Below, in pieces: positions 6,001 through 55,224 of a DNA stretch of 64,000 nucleotides. This DNA comes from Pecten maximus. Its lineage: Eukaryota. Numbering within the stretch: position 1 is the first letter of the stretch; every line of letters starts with the position of its first letter. The stretch spans positions 35,030,001-35,094,000 of the forward strand of contig NC_047015.1 in assembly GCF_902652985.1 (NCBI RefSeq). Direction: 5' to 3'. Under the pieces are notes generated by a model. It made no database searches, was not told where the DNA came from, and worked only from the letters and a program-made list of their open reading frames with translations. A program made the position numbers and the translations under genes.

Positions 6001-9000
6001 TAAAATGGGCTTCCCTATCCGAGTCAAATTCCCAGTCTTCATCGAGAGGTGAGTCGCTTATCTCCAGGTATTGGGAGTTATTTCCCTTTAAGCTTATATC
6101 CATTATTGTTCAATATACATAATTTTACTTATCCAGGTATTTGTTTTACTGTGAAGTTTTTGTTCTATTATATTTCCCTCAATAAATCTTCATTCTATTT
6201 CCAGGTATCGTTTCCTCCTGATGGGTAAAATTAATGACAGATTATTACCAACGGAGGTGTGTAACAAGATTCTGTTAACCCAGGGTCCATCAATGTCACA
6301 CATGTACAGGATTGGGGCCACAAAGGTAAGAACATATCATTTTAATTGAATTTAAACAAAATCAATTTTCCAAATAGAAACATGTAGAATTTTCCGATGT
6401 TAATTGCTAAAATCAAATCTGATATCATTAATTTAAAAACCTTAGATTGCTTACTACTTTGGGTTTATGCTATCTTCCTCTGATTTATGCCTCCAGTCCA
6501 CAACGAGTTTGTTCCTGAGAAACACGGAAAGTCTTTTTTTTAATGGACACATTTGTAAATTTTACACATAAATTTTAACAGTTTAGGGTCCGTTTCTGAG
6601 AAGCATGCATAGCTTTAAAAAAATTGTTATTCCTAATATCTCGAATGCTATTTTTTTAATGCAATTTATTTTCCTCTTTGAAATGATACTATCAATCTTG
6701 TTGAATAAGCTTTTGTTGAAATTTTAGTTTGCACAAGCAAATACCAATTGAAAATGTTTAAAGGGAGGTAACTTCATGATAAATCACAGGTAAAGTGTAA
6801 TGTCGCATGTCTCCTTAATTAAGCATTAACTAGATTTGTTTTCTTTTGACTTCTTAGAGATAATGTGTTTAACAGATGTCCACGGAGATAATGTTCTTTT
6901 CTTTAGATTAATTCTCCTACAGTTTGTTCAGAAATTATTAAGTCTGCATAATTAGATGGCATTGTCACCTAAGCTGCCAACAACTTGCCTAATTTTGACT
7001 ATGACAAACTTGACATGCGTCTGATATAATGGTAACATGTTTGTGTTGATACTTAACGCTACACTGGTTTTATAATTAGACAGAAACTGAAACACTTTAA
7101 TTTTCAAGATAAGTTGGATTAATTAGCCAGGTAATAACTGTGTCCATTTTGAAATTCTAAATGATTACTCATTTTAAAAACAGTTGGAATGTTGTGTCAG
7201 TGTGCTGAGTATGTTTGCTGTAGATATGATATTTATATACAACTGTCTGTTACGAAGAGTTATATATGTACTTAACTCAGTCGACAATATCATGTCGTTA
7301 AGTAAATTATATGTAAATTAAAATGCCTGGTCTGCCCATATTAAGGTAAATGACATACTGGTGTATATGTTATAAAAAGATGGGTGTTTAATGTAGTCAT
7401 AAACATGATTTTTTATGGCAGTTATCTCCCTTTGAATATACCTTATAACCATTCAAACCCTTAAGAAATTGAAACATTGAAAAATAGATAAATAAAATTA
7501 TAGAGTAAACATCTGATTTAGACACAAAAGACAGAATAGTGATATATAAAGAAAACTAAATAGCTACAAACATACAGATTAAACATGAGGTCAGAGAAGG
7601 TTTAAATGGTAGAGCACTATTAGGTGTAGTTCAATTATTTATTAACTGGGTTTTTTTTTATTGATAAGCAACCACAACAGGTTGTTTTCTTGCAACATTG
7701 TGATGTTGTCAACTTTTGTGCTTTTATGATTAATGGCCATGAACAATAAACAGAATAAATAAGTTTTTTGTAACATGTTTTGATCATCTCCAAATAAATC
7801 ATAAAATTATAAAAAATTGTTACATTTTAACCCCTATGAACACTGTCAACAGTACGAGATACCTGTAATAAACGCTGATTAATGTTCGCAGATCCTGAAC
7901 ATGCTGACACAAAGACCAGTATTTATAATACATGTCCGAAAGCTTGTCAGATAGTGTATGATAATACATCATTCTAACGTCATCAAGTTCATCTTCTGTT
8001 TATTTGAATAACATCCTCCAAAACAAAACAAGATATTTTTTAAATGCACAAAGTAATTTTTTTTTATGATTTCCATTATGACAGAGAAATAGTGTCACGA
8101 TAAGAAATTATCACTGAATTAGAAACAAATTCTTCTACAATGGCCGATTGTCATGCTAAAGTTGTTGTGTCATCAAAAGGTCATGTTGTAATATGTGATA
8201 CATTAAGTGCTTGTTTTGGGAACATCCTTAGAAGCAAACAAGACTAGTTATAAATCTTTTGAGATATTGATAAATTTTTGAGATGAAAATTGAAAATTCT
8301 TCCAATTACCAAGATCTTCAGTGTTTCTAGCTAGCATTGATATGTATTTATTTACTGTTATCTGCCAGCTTGAAAATTTGACTTTGTTTTATTTAAGCTA
8401 GCAAATAATCAAATGTGAAGCCTTTGCTAACATCAATTGGACACTGCTGTTAAAAACATTGTCAACTTGACATTTTTCCTATTTTTTTTTTTTTCTTCTT
8501 TTCAACAATTCCAATATTTCCAAAAATGATTTTTTATTATTCTATAGATTATTTGAAGAAAAGGTGTAATTTTTATTTCATTGTTAACTCAGGTTTTCAT
8601 GAAGGAGACATTTGAGCAGCAGCTAGATGTGCATGCCAAGAACATCGTAAACAATTCTGTCGTCACCATCCAGAAACTCACACGCATGTTCCTGGCACGT
8701 AGAAAATTCAAACACTTACAGTCCGCCACATGCAAGATCCAAGCTGTTATAAAGACTTGGGTTGAAAGGTGAGAATTTAGATGTTCAGGTTTTACTTTAA
8801 ATTTCCATGTGCCATCACCAAGGCTGTGGGCTGTATGTATTGTCTCCCACTGTATGTTGATGATGTACAATCTCCCAGGCTGTGGTACCAGTGATAGAGG
8901 GTCTATGTTGATGTACAATCTCCTAGCCTGTGGTACCTGTGATAGAGGGTCTATGTTGATGTACAATCTCCCAGCCTGTGATACCAGTGATAGAGGGTCT

Positions 9001-47600: not shown

Positions 47601-50600
47601 TTTAAAGCAAATGCTCAAATCTTAGTGGTCAATGTTTTCTTAAGAGGTGTTCTCCCTTCTTTTCAGTGTCAACATCAAAAGATGACATTTCACAGTTTAC
47701 TTCTCTGCTCTACCTTTGACCTTGACATTTTCCTCTATTGTTTGACTGTTACCTGCAATGTTTTAACTGTTATACTTCGTTTGATTTCACAGGTGTGATG
47801 AAGTTTATGGGAGATTATCCTATGGGCTCCAACCAATCAGAGTATGACTGCGTTCTCAAAGTTCTCAGGGTAGGTAACTCTCTGAATTATTGCTAACACA
47901 ACAGAATTTCAATCACCTGTCTGAGATTGAATTATAGAATGATTCTTATCAAGAAACATGAAAAATGATATGATATGAAGAATTATTTCATTTTCTTTAC
48001 AAGGAAATTTATTAAAAATGATACAAATTGCTGATATTAAAATGTTCCTGTTACAGTCGTGTCACAAACATCCGGAGATGAGGGATGAAATCTACTGCCA
48101 GCTTTGTAAGCAGACGACGAGTAACAGAAGTATGAAGCCGTAAGTATCAGTAGGACAAATCATTCTCGTCACCTAAACCCTGACTGATGCAGAGGGGAAC
48201 AAGTGGTATAATTACACTTATTATACACATATATGTATAGGTACATTGTGGTTACCATGCTTTACATTCCTATACCTTTAGTTACCACTGGTAACCATAG
48301 GTACCATACAGGTAACCTTTGGGTTTATATTTGTGTAATTTGTTTTTATTACCATTTCAGGAAAAGCTGCATAATGGGTTGGAGGTTGTTTTCAATCATT
48401 GCCTGTTATTGTGACTGCTCAGAAAGCTTAAGACCATATTTGTTCAAATATCTGGAAACAACGGCATCAGATTCTTCTAGAACATTCAGTGGAGCTGCAT
48501 CAATATGTCTGCAGAATCTTAGAAAGACCTTCAAATATGGAGGACGAAAGAATGTTCCACTGAAGGCAGAGATTTCAGCCTTAGCGGTAATTTGAAAGAA
48601 AAAACAACCAAAAATGGTTAAATTGCCAACATTTGCAACAATAAATGTTTTTATTTTGATGAGGAGTTTTGTGATTATAAGTCAAGGAAAAGAACAGTAT
48701 TAAGGTTGGAGGTAAACGTATTAGTCAGGTGACAGAAGAAGTGAAGTATGTCTCGGGGATTTAGATATTGTTTGGTTTTGAAATGATGCCATACAACAAT
48801 GGAATCAATATCTGTGTTACATAACTCATCAGTACAGGTGATATTTGAATTTAATAAGGTACTTTGACCAATGTTCATAATCTTGATGGCCTTCACCTTG
48901 AATCTAACCTTGACCATGATTTGATATATTTTAATGTATTTGTCATTTACAGGATGGACGGGTGTCGAAGAGGTACTCGTTTATCTACAGCGGTTCTGAG
49001 CGTGAGGGTATGCTCCAAGTTCGACCATCTCTCGTAAGTTAATGTACAATGTTGTTCCTTATGTTTTCTCAGTAATCATTATAGCCTCATATGTCCAGTA
49101 ACCATCAAACAAATTCTCCGCCGCCCACGATCACCTCCACATGTGATTGAGGTTCAATTATAACGTTTGTTGATTAAACATTTATAGATAGATTTATATT
49201 GAGATAGATGGTCAGCAGTTTGCCAAGCTAAATAAAATACAGGTGAATGTCTGTACAGATAAACTAATTAACAGGTGTATTCTATGTACAGATAAACTAA
49301 TTAACAGGTGTATTCTATGTACAGATAAACTCATTAACAGGTGTATTCTATGTACAGATAAACTAATTAACAGGTGTATTCTATGTACAGATAAACTCAT
49401 TAACAGGTGTATTCTATGTACAGATAAACTAATTAACAGGTGTATTCTATGGTAGCAGTGTACAGTAAAAATGCCAAATTCTGAAAAATATGGCACATGC
49501 TTTAGATATGTAAACATTGCCAGTTAACCTTACATATAACCTCTAATAAAGTATATATATTTGAAATCTGTACAACATTTGCAATTTTAATAGAGCTCTG
49601 AAGGATAAGTAAACTGATATTTTCTGTGATTTTTAGAGCTGTGAATACCATGGTAACAGCTTAAAAAATTCTCAAAAATTGCAAAATATTATGATATTTG
49701 ACCCAAAATGGCACAATTCTCTACACAATTTTTTTTCTGAAACCTATTTAAAATTAAATATCTCTATCCCAAAGACAGAATTAATCTTGTTTGGACATAT
49801 GTTGTAAATTAAGTTTTTACGCTATCTTACCTTTTCTGTGGGCTTCCATTTTGCGCTGTAGGCCAAACTAAATTTCCTGTGTAAACACACGTTCGGAAAA
49901 TCCGGATATTTAAAATCCGGAACCAATTTATTGATTTTTGTTTTGATAAATGTGAAGCCTGTATGTACTACTTCATACTGGATATACCAATTATAGTGTA
50001 CATTTATTTTTTCATTTTTTATACATATCATAATACAGGAGTTATTTGCTTAACAAAAAAATTGCCCATGGCCAGGCTGTCTTACTGTGGTGTGCTACCT
50101 TATACATCACTTTTGTTAATTCTAATTTTACTAAAAAGCCCATGAATGTCTAGAATATGTTCCGACGAACAAAATGACATATCGGGTTACTGTGTATCTT
50201 TAATAGTCACCGAGTATTGCTGATTTCCCTGAGAGGTGTATTTTGACAACTTTTTCTCCCAATCCAGTAATAAGGGGAGGTAATTTTAAAGATGAAAACT
50301 CCCATAATTCTGTATATCTCTTGAATAAAGTTGTGTTTTGAGTTGAATGTGGTACTTTGAGTCTCTGTGCATGTAATCAAGCAAAAAATACTGTACAACT
50401 ATCAAATTTAGCCTTGTAATATGACGTCATAGTTACCATGACGTCATCAGTAACTATGACGTCATCAGATGGTATCTATGACGTCATAAATACTCAATGG
50501 TGTCATAATAAATAACCAAATTCCTTTCCAAACCTCAGCTTATAATTAGCAACACATGCAATATTCTAACTGATAAATCATGACATGACATCCAAGATTT

Positions 50601-53600
50601 CAAAATGTCATGCCTATGACATCACAGTCATCTGTTTCCACCCCGGTAATTCAGATATGTACCAATGATCATATGAAAGTGTCCGCTGATCCCATTTTAT
50701 GCAGAAAATGCTATTTTTTCTGCTTTACCGAAGGAAGTGACAATAATTGACAATATTGTATCAACCGTACACTCCATCAATTGAAATTACATGCTTACCA
50801 ATGTATAAATAAATTGAAAATAATGGTTTCACCAAATATTTCAAAAAATAACACTTACTGTAATAGTTTCCATGGATACGGGGTAATAAATCAGGTAAAA
50901 CAAACCAGAATTCAGTCTATATGGTTTGTTAGATACCCAATAAGTTATTTTGGGTTTGTTATAAAACATAGAATATCTTTTCAATTTACACTGACTCATT
51001 AACATTATGCTTAATTAACCCACCCTTAAAATGGGTAAATATGCGAGTTACCTCCCTTGATTCCTCTAATATGACAAGCCTGATAATAAACAAGTTTTAA
51101 ATTGTTTTTATGCATTTTTGAGCAATAATGAACTAAAATGAAGCTTAATCAAGCATAATTAAGCACAATTTCCAAAAAATAACATTTTTCAGCCCTTATA
51201 AGGTAGCAGTGTACAGTAAAAATGCCAAATTCTGAAAAATATGGCACATGCTTTAGATATGTAAACATTGCCAGTTAACCTTACATATAACCTCTAATAA
51301 AGTATATATATTTGAAATCTGTACAACATTTGCAATTTTAATAGAGCTCTGAAGGATAAGTAAACTGATATTTTCTGTGATTTTTAGAGCTGTGAATACC
51401 ATGGTAACAGCTTAAAAAATTCTCAAAAATTGCAAAATATTATGATATTTGACCCAAAATGGCACAATTCTCTACACAATTTTTTTTCTGAAACCTATTT
51501 AAAATTAAATATCTCTATCCCAAAGACAGAATTAATCTTGTTTGGACATATGTTGTAAATTAAGTTTTTACGCTATCTTACCTTTTCTGTGGGCTTCCAT
51601 TTTGCGCTGTAGGCCAAACTTAATTTCCTGTGTAAACACACGTTCGGAAAATCCGGATATTTAAAATCCGGAACCAATTTATTGATTTTTGTTTTGATAA
51701 ATGTGAAGCCTGTATGTACTACTTCATACTGGATATACCAATTATAGTGTACATTTATTTTTTCATTTTTTATACATATCATAATACAGGAGTTATTTGC
51801 TTAACAAAAAAATTGCCCATGGCCAGGCTGTCTTACTGTGGTGTGCTACCTATGTACAGATAAACTCATTAACAGGTTTATTCTATGTACAGATAAACTC
51901 ATTAACAGGTGTATTCTATGTACAGATAAACTAATTAACCGGTATATTCTATGTACAGATAAACTCAATAACAAGTACATTCTATGCACAGATAAACTTA
52001 TTAAAAGGTTTATTCTACATATAAATTGATTAACACCTATTTTTTTATTCAGGTTGTAAAGGATGCCATTGAGGAGATTTGTAATCGACTCGACATTTTT
52101 GATCCAGTGGAAATGGAAGAATATACTTTGTTCCTGAGAACTAGTAAGTTTATGTCTGAATCAAGCAAGGTTATTTTCAAACTCTACACTAGTTGAACAT
52201 GTTAGCTGAAGTAGGAAGTACACAATTACATAATATCATTCCTTAAAGCTTCTAATAAGTACAGCCTCACATCAGCTAAGTGAGTTTTACTCACTCTCAT
52301 TGTACTTGTGAGTTTGTTATAGCTCTCATTGCTGCTGTAAACCGGTAACCTTGACCTTGAACCTGTAACCTTGACCTTTACAGATGATGATCACTACAGC
52401 CGACTTAAGTCGGAGGAATACATCCTGGACGTGACTTCAGAGTTTATCCGTGGAAACAAGGACTACCAACTGGTGTTCCAACGGACTGTTTGGTTCTTCC
52501 CATTCCGGGACACGGACAACATTATATACAATGAATTAATGTTCTTCCAGGTAACCACATTATGATTGTACAGGGCAATTGTTGGGGTTTGTGGTAGATT
52601 TTTGGAAACCCAAATCCATCACTTTTCCTGACCAAATGAAAGAGATAAAAACAAATTTAAATTGAAAACAAAAAAGTATTTTAAAAGGTTAATACCATAT
52701 TGTTTTTGAAAAAAAAAGAAGATTAAATCAAGAATTTTGAAAGTTGTCCTTTATCTTCTAAAACTGAACAGTAAAATAACTTGTGTTGACAGTGTCTGCC
52801 TGACTACCTAGAGGGACTCATGATAACGTTACAGAGTGGCCGTCTGTCCAGACAAGAGGAGGTAAGTGACTTGGACATTTAAATATAACATATATATTGG
52901 AATTTTTAACAATTTCAACAAATTTTATTTCAAAAAGGAAAAAGGATCAAACATATAAATTAGAAAGCATATGTTACCAGGTTCAGGGCCAAACTTTCAT
53001 ACAGCATTAAAATGACTTTTTAACAATTGATTATATAATATCTACATTTTGTTTTGTAATGCCAACAGAACACAGACTATAGCCGATGAGACAGATTCTA
53101 GTGATAGGTAGTCATATGACCAGTTACTAACTAATTTCATTTTACAGGACGACCTCCCCTCGCTTGGTGCTCTCCTGTTTAAGGCTTTTGACAGAGTGGG
53201 CACACCAACCATGTAAGTCAGAAAAATACTTTGTTGAACTATTTAAGCAATGAGTGATGGTCACTGGATCGAGGATATTTCAAATTTAGTGGATGTTTGA
53301 AAAACAGAAAAGTCATTTGACAGACCCTGTACACATCCTTTGGTTAAATTACTGTTCACATTGGACAAGTGGTCACTATAGGAAGGTGATCAATTAAAAT
53401 GAGTAGTCACAATGACAGGCAATCAGTATCGACAGGTGGTTATTATCAATAGGTGGTTAATATAGACAGGTGGTTATTATCAACAGTTAGTCAATATAGA
53501 CAGGTGGTTATTATCAATAGGTGGTTATTATCAATAGGTGGTTAATATAGACAGGTGGTTATTATCAATAGGTGGTTAATATAGACAGGTGGTTACTATC

Positions 53601-55224
53601 AACAGGAAGTAAATATAGATAGTGGTTACTATCAACAGGTGGTCAATATACACATGTGATCGCTTTTAACAGTTTGTCAATATAAACAAGTGGTCGCTAT
53701 CAACAGGTTGTCAATATAGACAGGTGGTCACAATCAACAGGAAGTCATTACCAGATAGTTACCCAGGGTTGTAAACATGGGTGGGCTTATTACCAGACAT
53801 GAGTCATTACCAGATAGTTACCCAGACTAACACTGTGTTACATTTTCAGTAAGGACCTGGCCTACCTTCTGCCTAAGACAATGAACAAGTTGTCGGACTT
53901 TCAGCCACAACAATGGGTTAACAGAATACACCACGAAATGAATGCTGCCAACCGTCTTGGACCTCTTAATTGCAAAGCTAAATTTGTTTGTAAGTCTTTA
54001 GTAGTTATCATTTTTGATAATTCTGCAGTCATGTGGTTTTCATCATGGTTTCAATCATTTTCATTAAATATGTACAAATATACTTCTCAATGCATGATTA
54101 TACTGCATACCTTTTAAACATTTTTTTTCAAAATTTGAATTGTTATCTAAAATTTGTGAATCTCTCTTTTTCACAAAATCTACCCTAGAAATAAGGAAAA
54201 ATAGAGAAAAAAACACCAGAGGTTTGTTTGTATTTATTTTACTGTCATAGCTAATTACACCCACATTTCTATATTACAGCTATTCTTTCGAGGTGGCCTC
54301 TGTTCGGATCTATATTCTTCATGGTCAAGGTAAGAACAAGGAAGATAAACATGTACAGTTTTATAAAATTAAACATGGTCTAGATAGATTTGCTCTTGTA
54401 GCTGAGTTTTAATATAATTGACTTTCATGAAATTGAATTTTGTACTTTTTGAGATATCAAATCATGTGATTCCTGACCTTCATGATGATATAAACAACAT
54501 ATGTTTACAGAATGCCCCCACACAGCCAGTCATCAGAGGAGACACCATTTTGGCTGTCAACAAAAATGGCATCCACTTCCTCAGTGAGGCAACTCATGTA
54601 AGTATTAGGCCTATTAATATAAAGTAAAATATTCTATAATTATTTTTCCATCAAACAAACAATATAGACCTTGATCACCTGAACTAATACCTACGCCGCA
54701 ACCTTCTGGAAAGGTGGATCTTTGATATGTAAACCTTGGTACTTCCTCCGACACATAACCCCATCACCATTAAATCTGACCTGACCTGTGACTACATACA
54801 TTGTTCATATTTTTGGTTGTGTTTCCTAGGAGACGATAATCCAGTACCAGTTTAGTGAAGTGATGTCAACGCGGCGCTACAGGAGCGACAGTAATCAGAA
54901 CTACCTTGATATGAAACTCGGCAATCTCATGGTGCAGAAAATAGTTCGCATTGAAACAGATCAGGTAAGTTTCAGGACATGCATGGTTCAAAAAACATTG
55001 TCTTGGTTTTTATAAATGATGATTGTTAAAATCTGACTCTTCATTGAGTTTTTGGTCTTAATCAAAAAAGCAAAACTAAAACGTCACAGCAAAAATTGAC
55101 TTTTTTTCTTCTTTTTTTTTTACAGGGATCCGACATTTCTAGCCTTATTGGACAATATATGCAAGTAATAAATCGTCATCGGAAACGACCCGCTGATAGA
55201 AATAGCATAGCACACAGGATGTGA
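1..55224 (+). CDS. MYO15A: Unconventional myosin XV-like gene (5'-partial; 47 exons in window, ~2315 aa): motor C-half, 3xIQ, charged helix, MyTH4-FERM, SH3, MyTH4-FERM
   Basis: Myosin motifs [27 protein letters not shown] and [14 protein letters not shown]. The tail order MyTH4-FERM(with long insert)-SH3-MyTH4-FERM matches class XV. All introns are GT-AG and the phases join without a frameshift (summed length 6950 nt, frame starts at nt 3). Confidence 0.9.
435..662 (+). CDS. MYO15A: Myosin XV exon, relay helix
   Basis: tttacag|[17 protein letters not shown]...DDECSFPQ|gtacgt. Confidence 0.95.
818..1905. repeat. 39-bp minisatellite, ~28 copies
   Basis: Unit gagttgtgtcccctgactaagacaaacctctgaagtcat. 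Confidence 0.97.
2114..2239 (+). CDS. MYO15A: Myosin XV motor exon
   Basis: [11 protein letters not shown]...[13 protein letters not shown]|gtaagt. Confidence 0.95.
2484..2561 (+). CDS. MYO15A: Myosin XV motor exon (its donor is amplified in the downstream array)
   Basis: [26 protein letters not shown]|gtaagt. Confidence 0.93.
2545..3806 (+). repeat. 39-bp minisatellite, ~32 copies, each containing the exon end plus 5' splice site
   Basis: Unit gtgagagtaaaaacagg|gtaagttatctggtattggaca. Confidence 0.97.
3807..4575. repeat. 25/30-bp compound minisatellite
   Basis: Core tggacaaggtca(g/c)catggtgtg; degrades toward the 3' end. Confidence 0.95.
4843..4997 (+). CDS. MYO15A: Myosin XV exon, loop 2 region
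   Basis: MIASMFKE...[19 protein letters not shown]; phase 0 to 2. Confidence 0.93.
5075..5830. repeat. 28-bp minisatellite, ~27 copies
   Basis: Unit gacattaagacttacacccaaacaccat. Confidence 0.97.
5878..6048 (+). CDS. MYO15A: Myosin XV exon, SH2/SH1 region
   Basis: [12 protein letters not shown]...[19 protein letters not shown]. Confidence 0.95.
6205..6325 (+). CDS. MYO15A: Myosin XV exon, converter
   Basis: YRFLL...YRIGATK|gtaaga. Confidence 0.93.
8593..8768 (+). CDS. MYO15A: Myosin XV exon, converter end + IQ1/IQ2
   Basis: VFMKE...[14 protein letters not shown]...IQAVIKTW. Confidence 0.93.
8850..13120. repeat. 48-bp minisatellite, ~85-88 copies, interspersed variant repeats
   Basis: Unit atgttgatgtacaatctcccagcctgtggtacctgtgatagagggtct. 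Confidence 0.98.
14130..14640. repeat. Degenerate dispersed/tandem repeat (MITE-end-like)
   Basis: Recurrent ccaggggtcagttaagacagg and acaggtgtcagattatacagg blocks. Confidence 0.6.
15340..15548. repeat. 26-bp minisatellite, ~8 copies
   Basis: gaggtttggccacattctctag(a/g)cta. Confidence 0.95.
15934..16105. repeat. 60-bp tandem repeat, ~3 copies
   Basis: attgagtgtgaggatatgaagtcaatgtgcccctccccttctgtataaagtataccacag. Confidence 0.95.
16935..17450. repeat. Degenerate gacaacctgt/aaacctctat repeats (MITE-derived)
   Basis: Recurrent agagacaacctgtttataaggac and ggacaacctgtctgtat. Confidence 0.5.
18619..18845 (+). mobile_element. tRNA-derived SINE
   Basis: A-box tggccaagtgg, B-box gagttcgaaac, body ggtggttttc...ggctttcctccac, tail taaaccaaatcaaa. 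Confidence 0.85.
20508..20592 (+). CDS. MYO15A: Myosin XV exon, IQ3
   Basis: ctttcag|[28 protein letters not shown]|gtaagg; phase 2 to 0. Confidence 0.9.
21542..21631 (+). CDS. MYO15A: Myosin XV exon, E/R/K-rich helix (SAH or coiled coil)
   Basis: [30 protein letters not shown]|gtaagt. Confidence 0.9.
24415..25127. repeat. 53-bp minisatellite, ~13 copies
   Basis: gagggatactgtacctatgtatcacctgtatatagagacagctcaatctcctt. Confidence 0.97.
26450..28135. repeat. Degenerate 17-20-bp tagacaggtg/gagaggtggtt array interrupted by a HINE
   Basis: The same units occur on both sides of 26817-27760. Confidence 0.9.
26817..27760 (+). mobile_element. Helentron-associated non-autonomous element (HINE/Pearl-like)
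   Basis: 5' subTIR agtcccccaccgg (26821) with adjacent inverted copy, (GTCC)n microsatellite, ~3.2 internal ~150-bp tandem repeats, 3' subTIR ccggtgggggact (27724), hairpin taattc-gtt-gaatta, T-rich ends. Confidence 0.88.
30067..30148 (+). CDS. MYO15A: Myosin XV exon
   Basis: [27 protein letters not shown]. Confidence 0.9.
30291..30424 (+). CDS. MYO15A: Myosin XV exon
   Basis: WQSVHTERH...[12 protein letters not shown]|gtaagt. Confidence 0.9.
30692..31880. repeat. 32-bp minisatellite, ~37 copies
   Basis: cagctgtcacctcataccatcatatagtggta. Confidence 0.97.
32875..32973 (+). CDS. MYO15A: Myosin XV exon, MyTH4-1 start
   Basis: [18 protein letters not shown]...AVSVFKM. Confidence 0.9.
33511..33585 (+). 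CDS. MYO15A: Myosin XV exon, MyTH4-1
   Basis: ILRYMGD...DYIVQM|gtaagt. Confidence 0.93.
33682..33842 (+). CDS. MYO15A: Myosin XV exon, MyTH4-1
   Basis: [12 protein letters not shown]...[14 protein letters not shown]. Confidence 0.93.
34175..34325. repeat. 29-bp tandem repeat, ~5 copies
   Basis: actaagaggtccaacacaattaagatttc. Confidence 0.9.
34518..34600 (+). repeat. Exact 40-bp tandem duplication spanning a 3' splice site
   Basis: tgttttacctgttgtcag|gtttgtttcggatgttggattt x2. Confidence 0.95.
34579..34748 (+). CDS. MYO15A: Myosin XV exon, MyTH4-1 end (duplicated acceptor upstream)
   Basis: [11 protein letters not shown]...[10 protein letters not shown]...FAD; only the second of two identical acceptors keeps frame. 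Confidence 0.9.
35117..35189 (+). CDS. MYO15A: Myosin XV exon, FERM-1 start
   Basis: [14 protein letters not shown]. Confidence 0.9.
35411..35617 (+). CDS. MYO15A: Myosin XV exon
   Basis: GWTVVL...[22 protein letters not shown]. Confidence 0.92.
35796..36625 (+). CDS. MYO15A: Myosin XV large exon, disordered insert
   Basis: Within ORF 35767..36690; tatag acceptor, cag|gtaggg donor; phases fit. Confidence 0.88.
36817..36917 (+). CDS. MYO15A: Myosin XV exon, Gln-rich
   Basis: [33 protein letters not shown]. Confidence 0.88.
37055..37924 (+). CDS. MYO15A: Myosin XV large exon, Gln/Pro-rich insert
   Basis: Within ORF 37061..37945; includes [16 protein letters not shown]. Confidence 0.9.
38076..38223 (+). 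CDS. MYO15A: Myosin XV exon with 3x EQKLGTK coding repeat
   Basis: ttcag acceptor, gtaagt donor; phase 0 to 1. Confidence 0.85.
38141..38204 (+). repeat. Exact 21-bp coding tandem repeat x3
   Basis: gagcagaaactgggaaccaag x3. Confidence 0.95.
38691..38914 (+). CDS. MYO15A: Myosin XV exon
   Basis: PPPLPK...[13 protein letters not shown]. Confidence 0.9.
39176..39311 (+). CDS. MYO15A: Myosin XV exon, FERM-1
   Basis: [11 protein letters not shown]...IFCQVVEDV...CIRI. Confidence 0.92.
39746..39867 (+). CDS. MYO15A: Myosin XV exon, FERM-1
   Basis: [15 protein letters not shown]|gtaagt. Confidence 0.92.
40287..40493 (+). CDS. MYO15A: Myosin XV exon, FERM-1 F3 lobe
   Basis: [12 protein letters not shown]...VFYTNR. 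Confidence 0.92.
40815..40865 (+). CDS. MYO15A: Myosin XV exon
   Basis: [17 protein letters not shown]|gtatga. Confidence 0.9.
41034..41148 (+). CDS. MYO15A: Myosin XV exon, SH3 N-half
   Basis: YVIAVKDY...[12 protein letters not shown]. Confidence 0.93.
41326..41426 (+). CDS. MYO15A: Myosin XV exon, SH3 C-half
   Basis: [19 protein letters not shown]. Confidence 0.93.
41607..41657 (+). CDS. MYO15A: Myosin XV small symmetric exon
   Basis: ttgcag|[17 protein letters not shown]|gtgagt; phase 0-0. Confidence 0.75.
41750..42200. repeat. 28-bp (and 18-bp) minisatellite abutting an acceptor
   Basis: cagattatacataatatacgtaatgtga. Confidence 0.95.
42211..42323 (+). CDS. MYO15A: Myosin XV exon
   Basis: [15 protein letters not shown]. 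Confidence 0.9.
43893..43996 (+). CDS. MYO15A: Myosin XV linker exon (possibly alternative)
   Basis: [23 protein letters not shown]...; phase 2 to 1 bridges the flanking exons; donor gtgacg is weak. Confidence 0.75.
44192..44370. repeat. ~30-bp repeat carrying ACTAAC, ~5-6 copies
   Basis: ccaaacacttggctccgcccactaacgttc. Confidence 0.9.
44401..44645. repeat. 49-bp tandem repeat x5
   Basis: ccacatacttacagtgaccttcacatttgatggagggtagtatctcaca. Confidence 0.95.
45565..46016. mobile_element. Non-autonomous TIR element with TTAA TSD (Kolobok-like MITE or solo repeat)
   Basis: ttaa|agaggcttacccgcaga ... tctgcgggcaagcctct|ttaa; 17-bp TIR with 1 mismatch, AG...CT termini. Confidence 0.88.
46217..46269 (+). 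CDS. MYO15A: Myosin XV exon
   Basis: [17 protein letters not shown]|gtgagt. Confidence 0.9.
47443..47515 (+). CDS. MYO15A: Myosin XV exon, MyTH4-2
   Basis: [10 protein letters not shown]...LALECFL. Confidence 0.92.
47793..47869 (+). CDS. MYO15A: Myosin XV exon, MyTH4-2
   Basis: VMKFMGDYP. Confidence 0.92.
48057..48139 (+). CDS. MYO15A: Myosin XV exon, MyTH4-2
   Basis: [16 protein letters not shown]. Confidence 0.93.
48361..48586 (+). CDS. MYO15A: Myosin XV exon, MyTH4-2
   Basis: [11 protein letters not shown]...[15 protein letters not shown]. Confidence 0.93.
48953..49033 (+). CDS. MYO15A: Myosin XV exon, FERM-2 start
   Basis: [12 protein letters not shown]...|gtaagt. Confidence 0.9.
49235..52035. 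repeat. 33-bp minisatellite split by a 2.4-kb insertion
   Basis: aacaggtgtattctatgtacagataaactaatt at 49235-49450 and 51851-52035. Confidence 0.93.
49451..51850. mobile_element. Non-autonomous element with 649-bp long terminal direct repeats, each bounded by 18-bp TIRs (KolobokP-like architecture)
   Basis: Near-identical repeats 49451-50099 and 51202-51850; ends ggtagcagtgtacagtaa / ttactgtggtgtgctacc; TAT duplicated at the insertion site; 1.1-kb non-coding core. Confidence 0.85.
52053..52143 (+). CDS. MYO15A: Myosin XV exon, FERM-2
   Basis: [10 protein letters not shown]...EEYTLFLRT. Confidence 0.9.
52384..52550 (+). CDS. MYO15A: Myosin XV exon, FERM-2
   Basis: EEYILDV...[11 protein letters not shown]...YNELMFFQ. 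Confidence 0.92.
52793..52861 (+). CDS. MYO15A: Myosin XV exon, FERM-2
   Basis: [10 protein letters not shown]. Confidence 0.92.
53148..53212 (+). CDS. MYO15A: Myosin XV exon, FERM-2
   Basis: [13 protein letters not shown]; upstream TACTAAC branch site. Confidence 0.9.
53410..53745. repeat. Degenerate 16-17-bp acaggtggtt array
   Basis: gacaggtggttattatcaataggtggttaatata; related to the 26450-28135 array. Confidence 0.85.
53850..53989 (+). CDS. MYO15A: Myosin XV exon, FERM-2
   Basis: YLLPK...PQQWVN...KAKFV. Confidence 0.92.
54280..54329 (+). CDS. MYO15A: Myosin XV exon, FERM-2
   Basis: [16 protein letters not shown]. Confidence 0.92.
54511..54597 (+). CDS. MYO15A: Myosin XV exon, FERM-2 F3
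   Basis: [12 protein letters not shown]. Confidence 0.92.
54830..54964 (+). CDS. MYO15A: Myosin XV exon, FERM-2 F3
   Basis: [10 protein letters not shown]...[21 protein letters not shown]. Confidence 0.93.
55126..55224 (+). CDS. MYO15A: Myosin XV terminal coding exon
   Basis: [11 protein letters not shown]...RNSIAHRM then TGA. Confidence 0.92.
   Translation, partial: GSDISSLIGQYMQVINRHRKRPADRNSIAHRM

What the first reader, a model, noticed from the sequence alone, without database searches (positions are those of the whole stretch)
49448..51853. Young composite element: two 649-bp direct repeats, each a self-contained TIR unit, flanking a 1.1-kb non-coding core
Seen in the sequence: repeats 49451-50099 and 51202-51850 differ by only one substitution that I could find. 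Each starts GGTAGCA and ends TGCTACC (18-bp imperfect TIR). There are no TG...CA ends, and no PBS or gag/pol is evident. The host 33-bp satellite reveals the empty site: ttcTAT[element]TATgtacag, a 3-bp duplication (CTAT or TATG if one end is read 1 nt shorter). The whole 2.4 kb therefore moved as one unit. The inner junctions are cc|ttata and ttataa|gg. The layout resembles an LTR element or a bacterial composite transposon but has DNA-transposon ends. From memory, not verified here, the KolobokP subgroup of Kolobok has this architecture. This would be a non-autonomous member at a non-TTAA target, or a MITE pair mobilising intervening DNA.
Basis: partly seen in the sequence, partly recalled or inferred. 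Interest (0 to 1): 0.7.

Follow-up and report, generated by a model that had tools for sequence, protein, structure and literature searches.

The report
Gene-less KolobokP transposon with twin ends
This is one recent, gene-less copy of an already described kind of shellfish jumping DNA (KolobokP), present hundreds of times in this genome; its one point of interest is that the two end repeats of each copy match each other far better than they match other copies, likely because both are copied from one template.

Summary
Observation confirmed: 649-bp arms (one mismatch), 14/18 TIRs, 3-bp TAT duplication in a 33-bp satellite, inside an intron of a MyTH4-domain gene. It is a non-autonomous KolobokP of the ~660-bp-LTDR class (PMC9587614). 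G000 holds 1,113 exact arm starts and about 350 arm-core junctions, as solo arms, monomers, multimers and core-core runs; 48 of 50 intact insertions have 3-4-bp duplications. The core is a deletion relic: its 5' part and a decayed His-Me nuclease fragment align to a broken coding relative (arm 77% identical) with a Kolobok DDE transposase and a His-Me nuclease. I found no intact partner with these ends. Added here: arms differ by 0.44 substitutions within a copy and 5.6 between copies, with no left/right lineage, so the twin ends are homogenised, likely at mobilisation. This family is not among those in the paper's Table S1. The scan has met KolobokP before in other genomes, once with the same arm observation. 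Verdict: new member of a known kind, modest interest.

The parts
49252..49450 (.). 33-bp host satellite, left part (6.1 units); insertion site
49448..49450 (+). left copy of the 3-bp target-site duplication TAT (site C|TAT|G fits the family preference Y|TWA|R loosely)
49451..50099 (+). left LTDR, 649 bp, with its own imperfect TIRs (49451-49468 and 50082-50099, 14/18 complementary)
50100..50518 (+). core, 5' part: homologous (61-74% in pieces) to the non-coding 5' interior of coding relative L143, up to about 20 bases before its transposase frame
50422..50486 (.). four perfect TGACGTCA palindromes (CRE-like; label recalled); the only four in the window; a similar cluster lies just upstream of the L143 transposase, so likely a promoter relic
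50556..50752 (-). decayed remnant of the N-terminal half of the His-Me finger nuclease gene (DNA-level match only; stops in frame)
   Evidence: 0 of 1000 shuffles vs L143 and vs L175, 141 of 1000 vs L176; protein HMM negative
50753..51201 (+). core, 3' part: weakly collinear with the 3' interior of L143; ends TTATAA
   Evidence: score 139 over core 457-1093; 200 shuffles max 119
51202..51850 (+). right LTDR, 649 bp, one substitution from the left
51851..51853 (+). right copy of the target-site duplication TAT
51851..52017 (.). 33-bp host satellite, right part (5.1 units)
48953..49033 (+). host exon upstream of the insertion (AG/GT ends read from the sequence); the element lies in intron 49034-52052
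   Evidence: no Pfam hit for this exon
52053..52143 (+). host exon downstream; weak FERM_f0 match (E 0.098); exon 48057-48137 of the same gene matches MyTH4 (E 2.5e-10), so likely a MyTH4-FERM myosin tail

Best explanation
The element is a young, non-autonomous KolobokP DNA transposon (LTDR-interior-LTDR, ~660-bp class), likely derived from a coding element by loss of the transposase and half of the nuclease gene, and likely moved by a Kolobok DDE transposase supplied in trans. Shown: the structure, copy number, 3-bp duplications, solo/monomer/multimer forms, homology to a coding relative, and near-identity of the two arms of each copy. Inferred: the transposase pairs any two inverted ends, so it can move one arm, a monomer or a multimer, and inserts with a 3-nt stagger at Y|TWA|R-like sites. 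It can also cut an inner arm out of a multimer, leaving core-core joints that lack exactly 3 bases. Inferred, about 0.5 on its own: new copies come from an intermediate with a single arm (an arm+core circle or its concatemer), which would reset both arms to one sequence at each round, as reverse transcription does for LTRs. Unequal exchange in place then changes the unit number in arrays.
For: 1,113 exact arm starts, 352 arm|core and 357 core|arm exact junctions, controls 0. Of 36 loci on C1: 20 arm-only, 10 monomers, 3 multimers, 3 partial. TSD 3 bp in 45 of 50 and 4 bp in 3 of 50 intact insertions, including multimers (9 of 59 loci dropped for truncated, mutated or contig-cut ends). Coding relative L143: arm 77% identical with near-identical termini; interior starts TTATACA like the core; PF20700 transposase on + and PF05551 nuclease on -. 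Its relatives keep D256, D348 and E513, the C/DxxH histidine and both zinc fingers (numbering of P0001). Published ~660-bp LTDRs (KolobokP-1_CGi, 3_MyEd, N1_MyEd, 7_MeMe, 8_DrPo) also start ggtagca and end tgctacc. First-vs-last arm distance is 0.44 within 25 copies, against 5.8 (left-left), 5.4 (right-right) and 5.6 (left-right) between copies; 74 variants are shared by both arms and 11 sit in one arm. Arm haplotypes recur at unlinked loci and in solos, and arm and core distances are linked (Mantel rho 0.63, 0 of 2000). 11 of 13 exact core-core joints lack exactly 3 bases.
Against: No intact partner with these ends was found in G000. L143 has an interrupted transposase and no right arm; the other relatives are fragments. 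The coding ~460-bp-class elements have different termini. The nuclease remnant is seen only at DNA level, against 2 of 3 relatives, and a protein profile missed it. No arm-end-to-arm-start joint, which an integrated transposase-made circle might leave, exists in G000 (0 matches). L184 (arms 2 and 3 share a terminal change absent from arm 1) and the C6 array (neighbouring cores share 5 variants) show duplication in place, so homogenisation after insertion is a real alternative. Only 25 multi-arm copies and 19 solos of about 1,100 arms were compared, partly chosen as best matches to this copy.
Confidence: 0.9

Rival explanations
1. Same family, different homogenising step: the element moves by plain cut-and-paste of the whole monomer, and the two arms are kept alike afterwards by nuclease-induced unequal exchange or gene conversion between sister chromatids (the model of PMC9587614 Fig. 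5a/5c).
For: Duplication in place is shown by L184 and by the 15.3-kb C6 array, whose arm-less core runs repeat the same joint type and share variants. The lineage encodes a His-Me nuclease. It also predicts identical arms and linked arm and core haplotypes.
Against: Changes after insertion stay in one arm: 11 one-arm substitutions at 11 different sites, and one-arm truncations or insertions in L015, L026, L184 and L218. No left/right difference recurs among 25 copies, which donors caught before conversion would produce.
Confidence: 0.4
2. Two independent MITE insertions, or a MITE pair, captured 1.1 kb of host DNA.
For: Solo arms with their own 3-bp duplications are the commonest form.
Against: The same core lies between arms about 350 times with fixed junctions, is homologous to the interior of a coding element, and its haplotypes track the arms.
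Confidence: 0.01
3. A non-autonomous LTR retroelement (TRIM/LARD), whose arms are reset by reverse transcription.
For: LTR-like layout; solos and tandem arrays; arms identical within copies but not between them.
Against: GG...CC ends with TIRs rather than TG...CA; 3-bp TSD; the homologous coding element has a DDE transposase and a His-Me nuclease; core-core joints with 3-base loss point to arm excision.
Confidence: 0.02
4. Monomers are rebuilt when an arm+core circle recombines into an unrelated solo arm elsewhere (PMC9587614 Fig. 5b1/5b2).
For: L150 (1 of 6 multimers compared) has a first arm carrying a variant of another subfamily, and two cores that differ at 5 sites.
Against: It predicts within-copy arm distances near the between-copy value of 5.6; the observed mean is 0.44. 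At most a minor route.
Confidence: 0.07

Closest known systems
Non-autonomous KolobokP families of the ~660-bp-LTDR class (Kojima and Bao 2022, PMC9587614), e.g. KolobokP-N4_CGi (2,723 bp, LTDR 650, TSD 3, TIR 18), KolobokP-7N1/7N2/7N3_CorFlu (2,450-2,453 bp, LTDR 663-664), KolobokP-N1_MyEd (2,070 bp, LTDR 663, TSD 3)
   Same: LTDR-INT-LTDR layout, LTDR length class, short imperfect TIRs, GGTAGCA...TGCTACC termini (seen for N1_MyEd and for 1_CGi, 3_MyEd, 7_MeMe, 8_DrPo), 3-bp TSD, solos, multimers and INT-INT joints with micro-deletions.
   Different: This family (about 2,394 bp, LTDR 649) is not a row of Table S1, and three 22-25-base motifs of it were absent from the supplements (line breaks can hide a match). 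The C6 array has seven cores in a row, more than the (INT)4 the paper cites. The paper's main text gives no within-copy versus between-copy arm comparison.
Bacterial composite and pseudo-composite transposons (IS26 translocatable units; as discussed in PMC9587614)
   Same: A cargo between two direct, self-contained TIR modules; either module can move alone.
   Different: The transposase lies in the interior of the coding relative, not in the modules; the cargo is the element's own decayed interior; the arms are homogenised within each copy.
TRIM/LARD non-autonomous LTR retrotransposons (definition recalled; TRIM arrays mentioned in PMC9587614)
   Same: Direct terminal repeats identical within a copy; solos; tandem arrays.
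   Different: No TG...CA ends, 3-bp TSD, TIRs on each arm, DDE plus His-Me relative.

Membership tests
KolobokP | [quoted passage not shown] | tested here: met
KolobokP | LTDR about 450 or about 660 bp (648-688 in Table S1) | tested here: met
   649 bp
KolobokP | Each LTDR has short TIRs (11-18 bp) with 5'-RR...YY-3' ends | tested here: met
   GG...CC, 14/18
KolobokP | 3-5-bp TSD (mostly 3 in the ~660 class) without strict target sequence | tested here: met
   45 of 50 3-bp, 3 of 50 4-bp, 13 different triplets
KolobokP | Solo LTDRs, (LTDR-INT)n-LTDR multimers and INT-INT joints with micro-deletions | tested here: met
KolobokP | Interior encodes a Kolobok DDE transposase and an opposite-strand His-Me nuclease (in the autonomous partner) | tested here: met
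   Met through homology: relative L143 (arm 77%) has PF20700 and PF05551 tail to tail, with the DDE, C/DxxH histidine and zinc-finger cysteines conserved. The core keeps its 5' interior and a nuclease remnant.
KolobokP | An intact autonomous partner with the same ends exists | tested here: inconclusive
   None in G000 among 69 of 69 and 70 of 87 candidates scored. P0001, a 634-aa intact relative from Logan contigs, is at most 71-82% alike to anything in G000, and its DNA could not be seen.
KolobokP | Transposase falls in the KolobokP (~660-bp) clade on a tree with the published families | not tested
Kolobok superfamily (classical) | TTAA-specific 4-bp TSD | tested here: not met
   3-bp TSDs. 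The paper's KolobokP families do not meet it either.
LTR retrotransposon / TRIM | TG...CA termini, 4-6-bp TSD, RT/integrase partner (recalled) | tested here: not met

The most novel reading that the evidence does not exclude
KolobokP is a DDE transposon that regenerates LTR-like twin ends without reverse transcription. Each round passes through a single-arm circle or its rolling-circle concatemer, from which the transposase cuts solos, monomers and multimers, and it excises arms almost seamlessly through 3-nt overhangs (core-core joints keep either TAA or TTA). This young family of about 1,100 arms is a ready system for proving it.
Probability: 0.4. Interest if true: 0.6.

Novelty: new member of a known kind. 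Interest (0 to 1): 0.27.

Why it matters
As an element it is ordinary: one more family of a lineage with 228 described families. Its use is as data on the open question of how KolobokP keeps its composite form, a model that a 2026 review says still awaits experimental confirmation (PMC13565253, passage). The arm comparison rules out independent left and right ancestry, and rules out rebuilding from unrelated solos as the main route. The family is also a recent, abundant mutagen in this genome, and its core carries a cluster of four CRE-like palindromes into new places, including this intron (any regulatory effect is untested).

Tried and rejected
Presence/absence polymorphism: contigs of other runs break in the 33-bp satellite, no listed piece spanned the satellite-arm junction, and the one raw-read run laid nothing, so no verdict. 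Protein-level detection of the nuclease remnant with a 19-sequence profile: no signal above shuffles. The core against L176's nuclease region: not significant (141 of 1000); against L143 bases 6690-7300 alone: not significant. Head-to-tail arm joints: none. Rfam: only a sub-threshold MIR4371 match over the palindrome cluster (24 bits against a gathering score of 110), taken as chance. tRNA: none. Orphan junctions on C1-C6 checked for a longer coding interior: all were truncated or mutated non-coding copies. The coding elements with ~454-465-bp LTDRs in G000 (L123-L131, L134) were rejected as partners because their termini differ. A GGTAGCA at window 58999 has no matching end within 3.5 kb and no arm homology. 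Literature searches: 'KolobokP' gave 2 papers; 'Kolobok' + 'long terminal direct repeats' 1; 'Kolobok' + 'scallop' + 'transposon' 7; a five-term search on circular intermediates 2. None seen describes this family; Repbase itself could not be searched.
Full report
Observation. The two arms are at 49451-50099 and 51202-51850, 649 bp each, with one substitution; the core is 1,102 bp; TAT flanks both ends. The 33-bp satellite resumes in register after 2,400 + 3 bases. The TIRs are complementary at 14 of 18 bases and the longest open frame is 86 codons. The insertion lies in intron 49034-52052, read from splice signals, of a gene with a MyTH4 exon (E 2.5e-10) and a weak FERM match; two of the four exons scanned had no Pfam hit.

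The family in G000. The core search gave 42 near-full-length matches at about 99% identity from the 40 of 771 candidates scored; in all 30 loci fetched the core abuts an arm or another core. Exact counts are 1,113 arm starts, 352 arm|core junctions and 357 core|arm junctions, with 0 in the reversed-pattern controls. The 51 exact arm starts on C1 fall into 36 loci: 20 arm-only (16 full length), 10 monomers, 3 multimers and 3 partial. Of 59 loci examined, 50 had both ends intact; 45 have a 3-bp and 3 a 4-bp duplication, 2 have none; targets favour Y|TWA|R. An unplaced contig holds about 14 consecutive units of 1,745 bp (its length may be an assembly effect). A 15,294-bp array on C6 reads arm-core-arm-core7-arm-core2-arm-core-arm, with a TCA duplication at its outer ends.

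Origin of the core. PF20700 and PF05551 searches led to L143 (G000:C3391). Its single arm is 77% identical to ours with near-identical termini. It is followed by an interior starting TTATACA, a Mutator-like transposase (E 4e-37) and a His-Me nuclease on the other strand (E 1.4e-9). In an alignment of seven relatives the DDE triad, the C/DxxH histidine and the cysteines of both zinc fingers are invariant, as PMC9587614 describes for KolobokP. The nearest named protein is from a scallop, 77% identical. Core bases 1-242 and 166-419 align to L143's 5' interior far above shuffles. Core 457-653 aligns to the first half of the nuclease gene of L143 and of L175 (0 of 1000 shuffles each) but not significantly to L176 (141 of 1000), and a protein profile does not detect it. 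The core is therefore best read as an internal-deletion relic. L143 itself is interrupted and lacks a right arm, and no intact element with these ends was found, so the enzyme that moved this family was not identified.

Comparison with what is known. Of PMC9587614 I read parts 1-4 of 6 of the text, passages and Table S1 whole, and ran motif searches of the supplements. It defines KolobokP by exactly this layout, two LTDR length classes, solos, multimers and INT-INT joints with 3-4-bp loss. Several ~660-bp families share the GGTAGCA...TGCTACC termini. This family is not in Table S1. Of PMC10294476 and PMC13565253 I saw passages only. Earlier notes of this scan report KolobokP in other genomes; they are leads, not support.

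Mechanism. Prompted by one of those notes, I compared arms in 25 intact multi-arm copies and 19 solos. First and last arm differ by 0.44 substitutions on average, against 5.4-5.8 between copies, with no left/right split; 74 variants are shared by both arms and 11 are in one arm only. Several arm haplotypes recur at unlinked loci and in solos; this copy's left arm is identical to arms of L003, L025, L033 and L034, so it is very young. Arm and core distances are linked (rho 0.63, 0 of 2000 permutations). This excludes independent ancestry of left and right arms, and excludes rebuilding from unrelated solos as the main route (L150 is a possible exception). Two readings remain. In the first, copies are born from a single-arm intermediate; one-arm changes persisting after insertion, and the lack of recurring left/right differences, favour it slightly. 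In the second, arms are homogenised in place; L184 and the C6 array show that duplication in place happens, and no arm-to-arm joint was found. Of 13 exact core-core joints, 11 lack exactly 3 bases, keeping either TAA or TTA between the shared flanks, and 2 lack 2 bases. That fits arm excision with a 3-nt stagger (inference). The sample is small and partly biased to the best matches, and assembly errors may add to the one-arm count.

Verdict. Interest 0.27. The arm-reset question is the part worth following; whether the site is polymorphic could not be decided.

Noticed in passing
G000:C6:35039707-35055000 (L147, L190): 15.3-kb multimer with seven arm-less cores in a row and three kinds of core-core joint; neighbouring cores share five variants, so excision was followed by tandem duplication.
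   Followed up: yes
L123-L131, L134 (e.g. G000:C2:51977104-51981632): Several coding KolobokP elements with ~454-465-bp LTDRs, some with long open transposase frames (667-682 aa) and 99.6-100% identical arms; tandem arrays on C844 and C18.
   Followed up: partly
L150 (G000:C7:15052653-15056792): Dimer whose first arm carries a variant of another subfamily and whose two cores differ at 5 sites; a possible join of two different copies, or assembly error.
   Followed up: partly
window 50543-50548: This copy's core is 6 bases longer than the usual 1,096 because of an extra TTATAA.
   Followed up: yes
runs X13, X14, X19: About half of the words of this stretch occur in runs labelled as two other organisms (B, C); X19 contigs match the arm start. 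Sister species, transfer or labelling: not examined.
   Followed up: no
window 47790-54330: Many small exons of a MyTH4-FERM gene, likely an unconventional myosin tail (the myosin label is recalled).
   Followed up: partly
P0001: Intact 634-aa transposase of this sub-lineage known only from Logan contigs (9 contigs, longest 3,859 bp, about the length of an interior); a candidate partner or a sister-species element.
   Followed up: partly
L091-L100, L118-L120: Multi-copy PF20700 elements with 968-999-aa open frames, another young Kolobok-like family.
   Followed up: no
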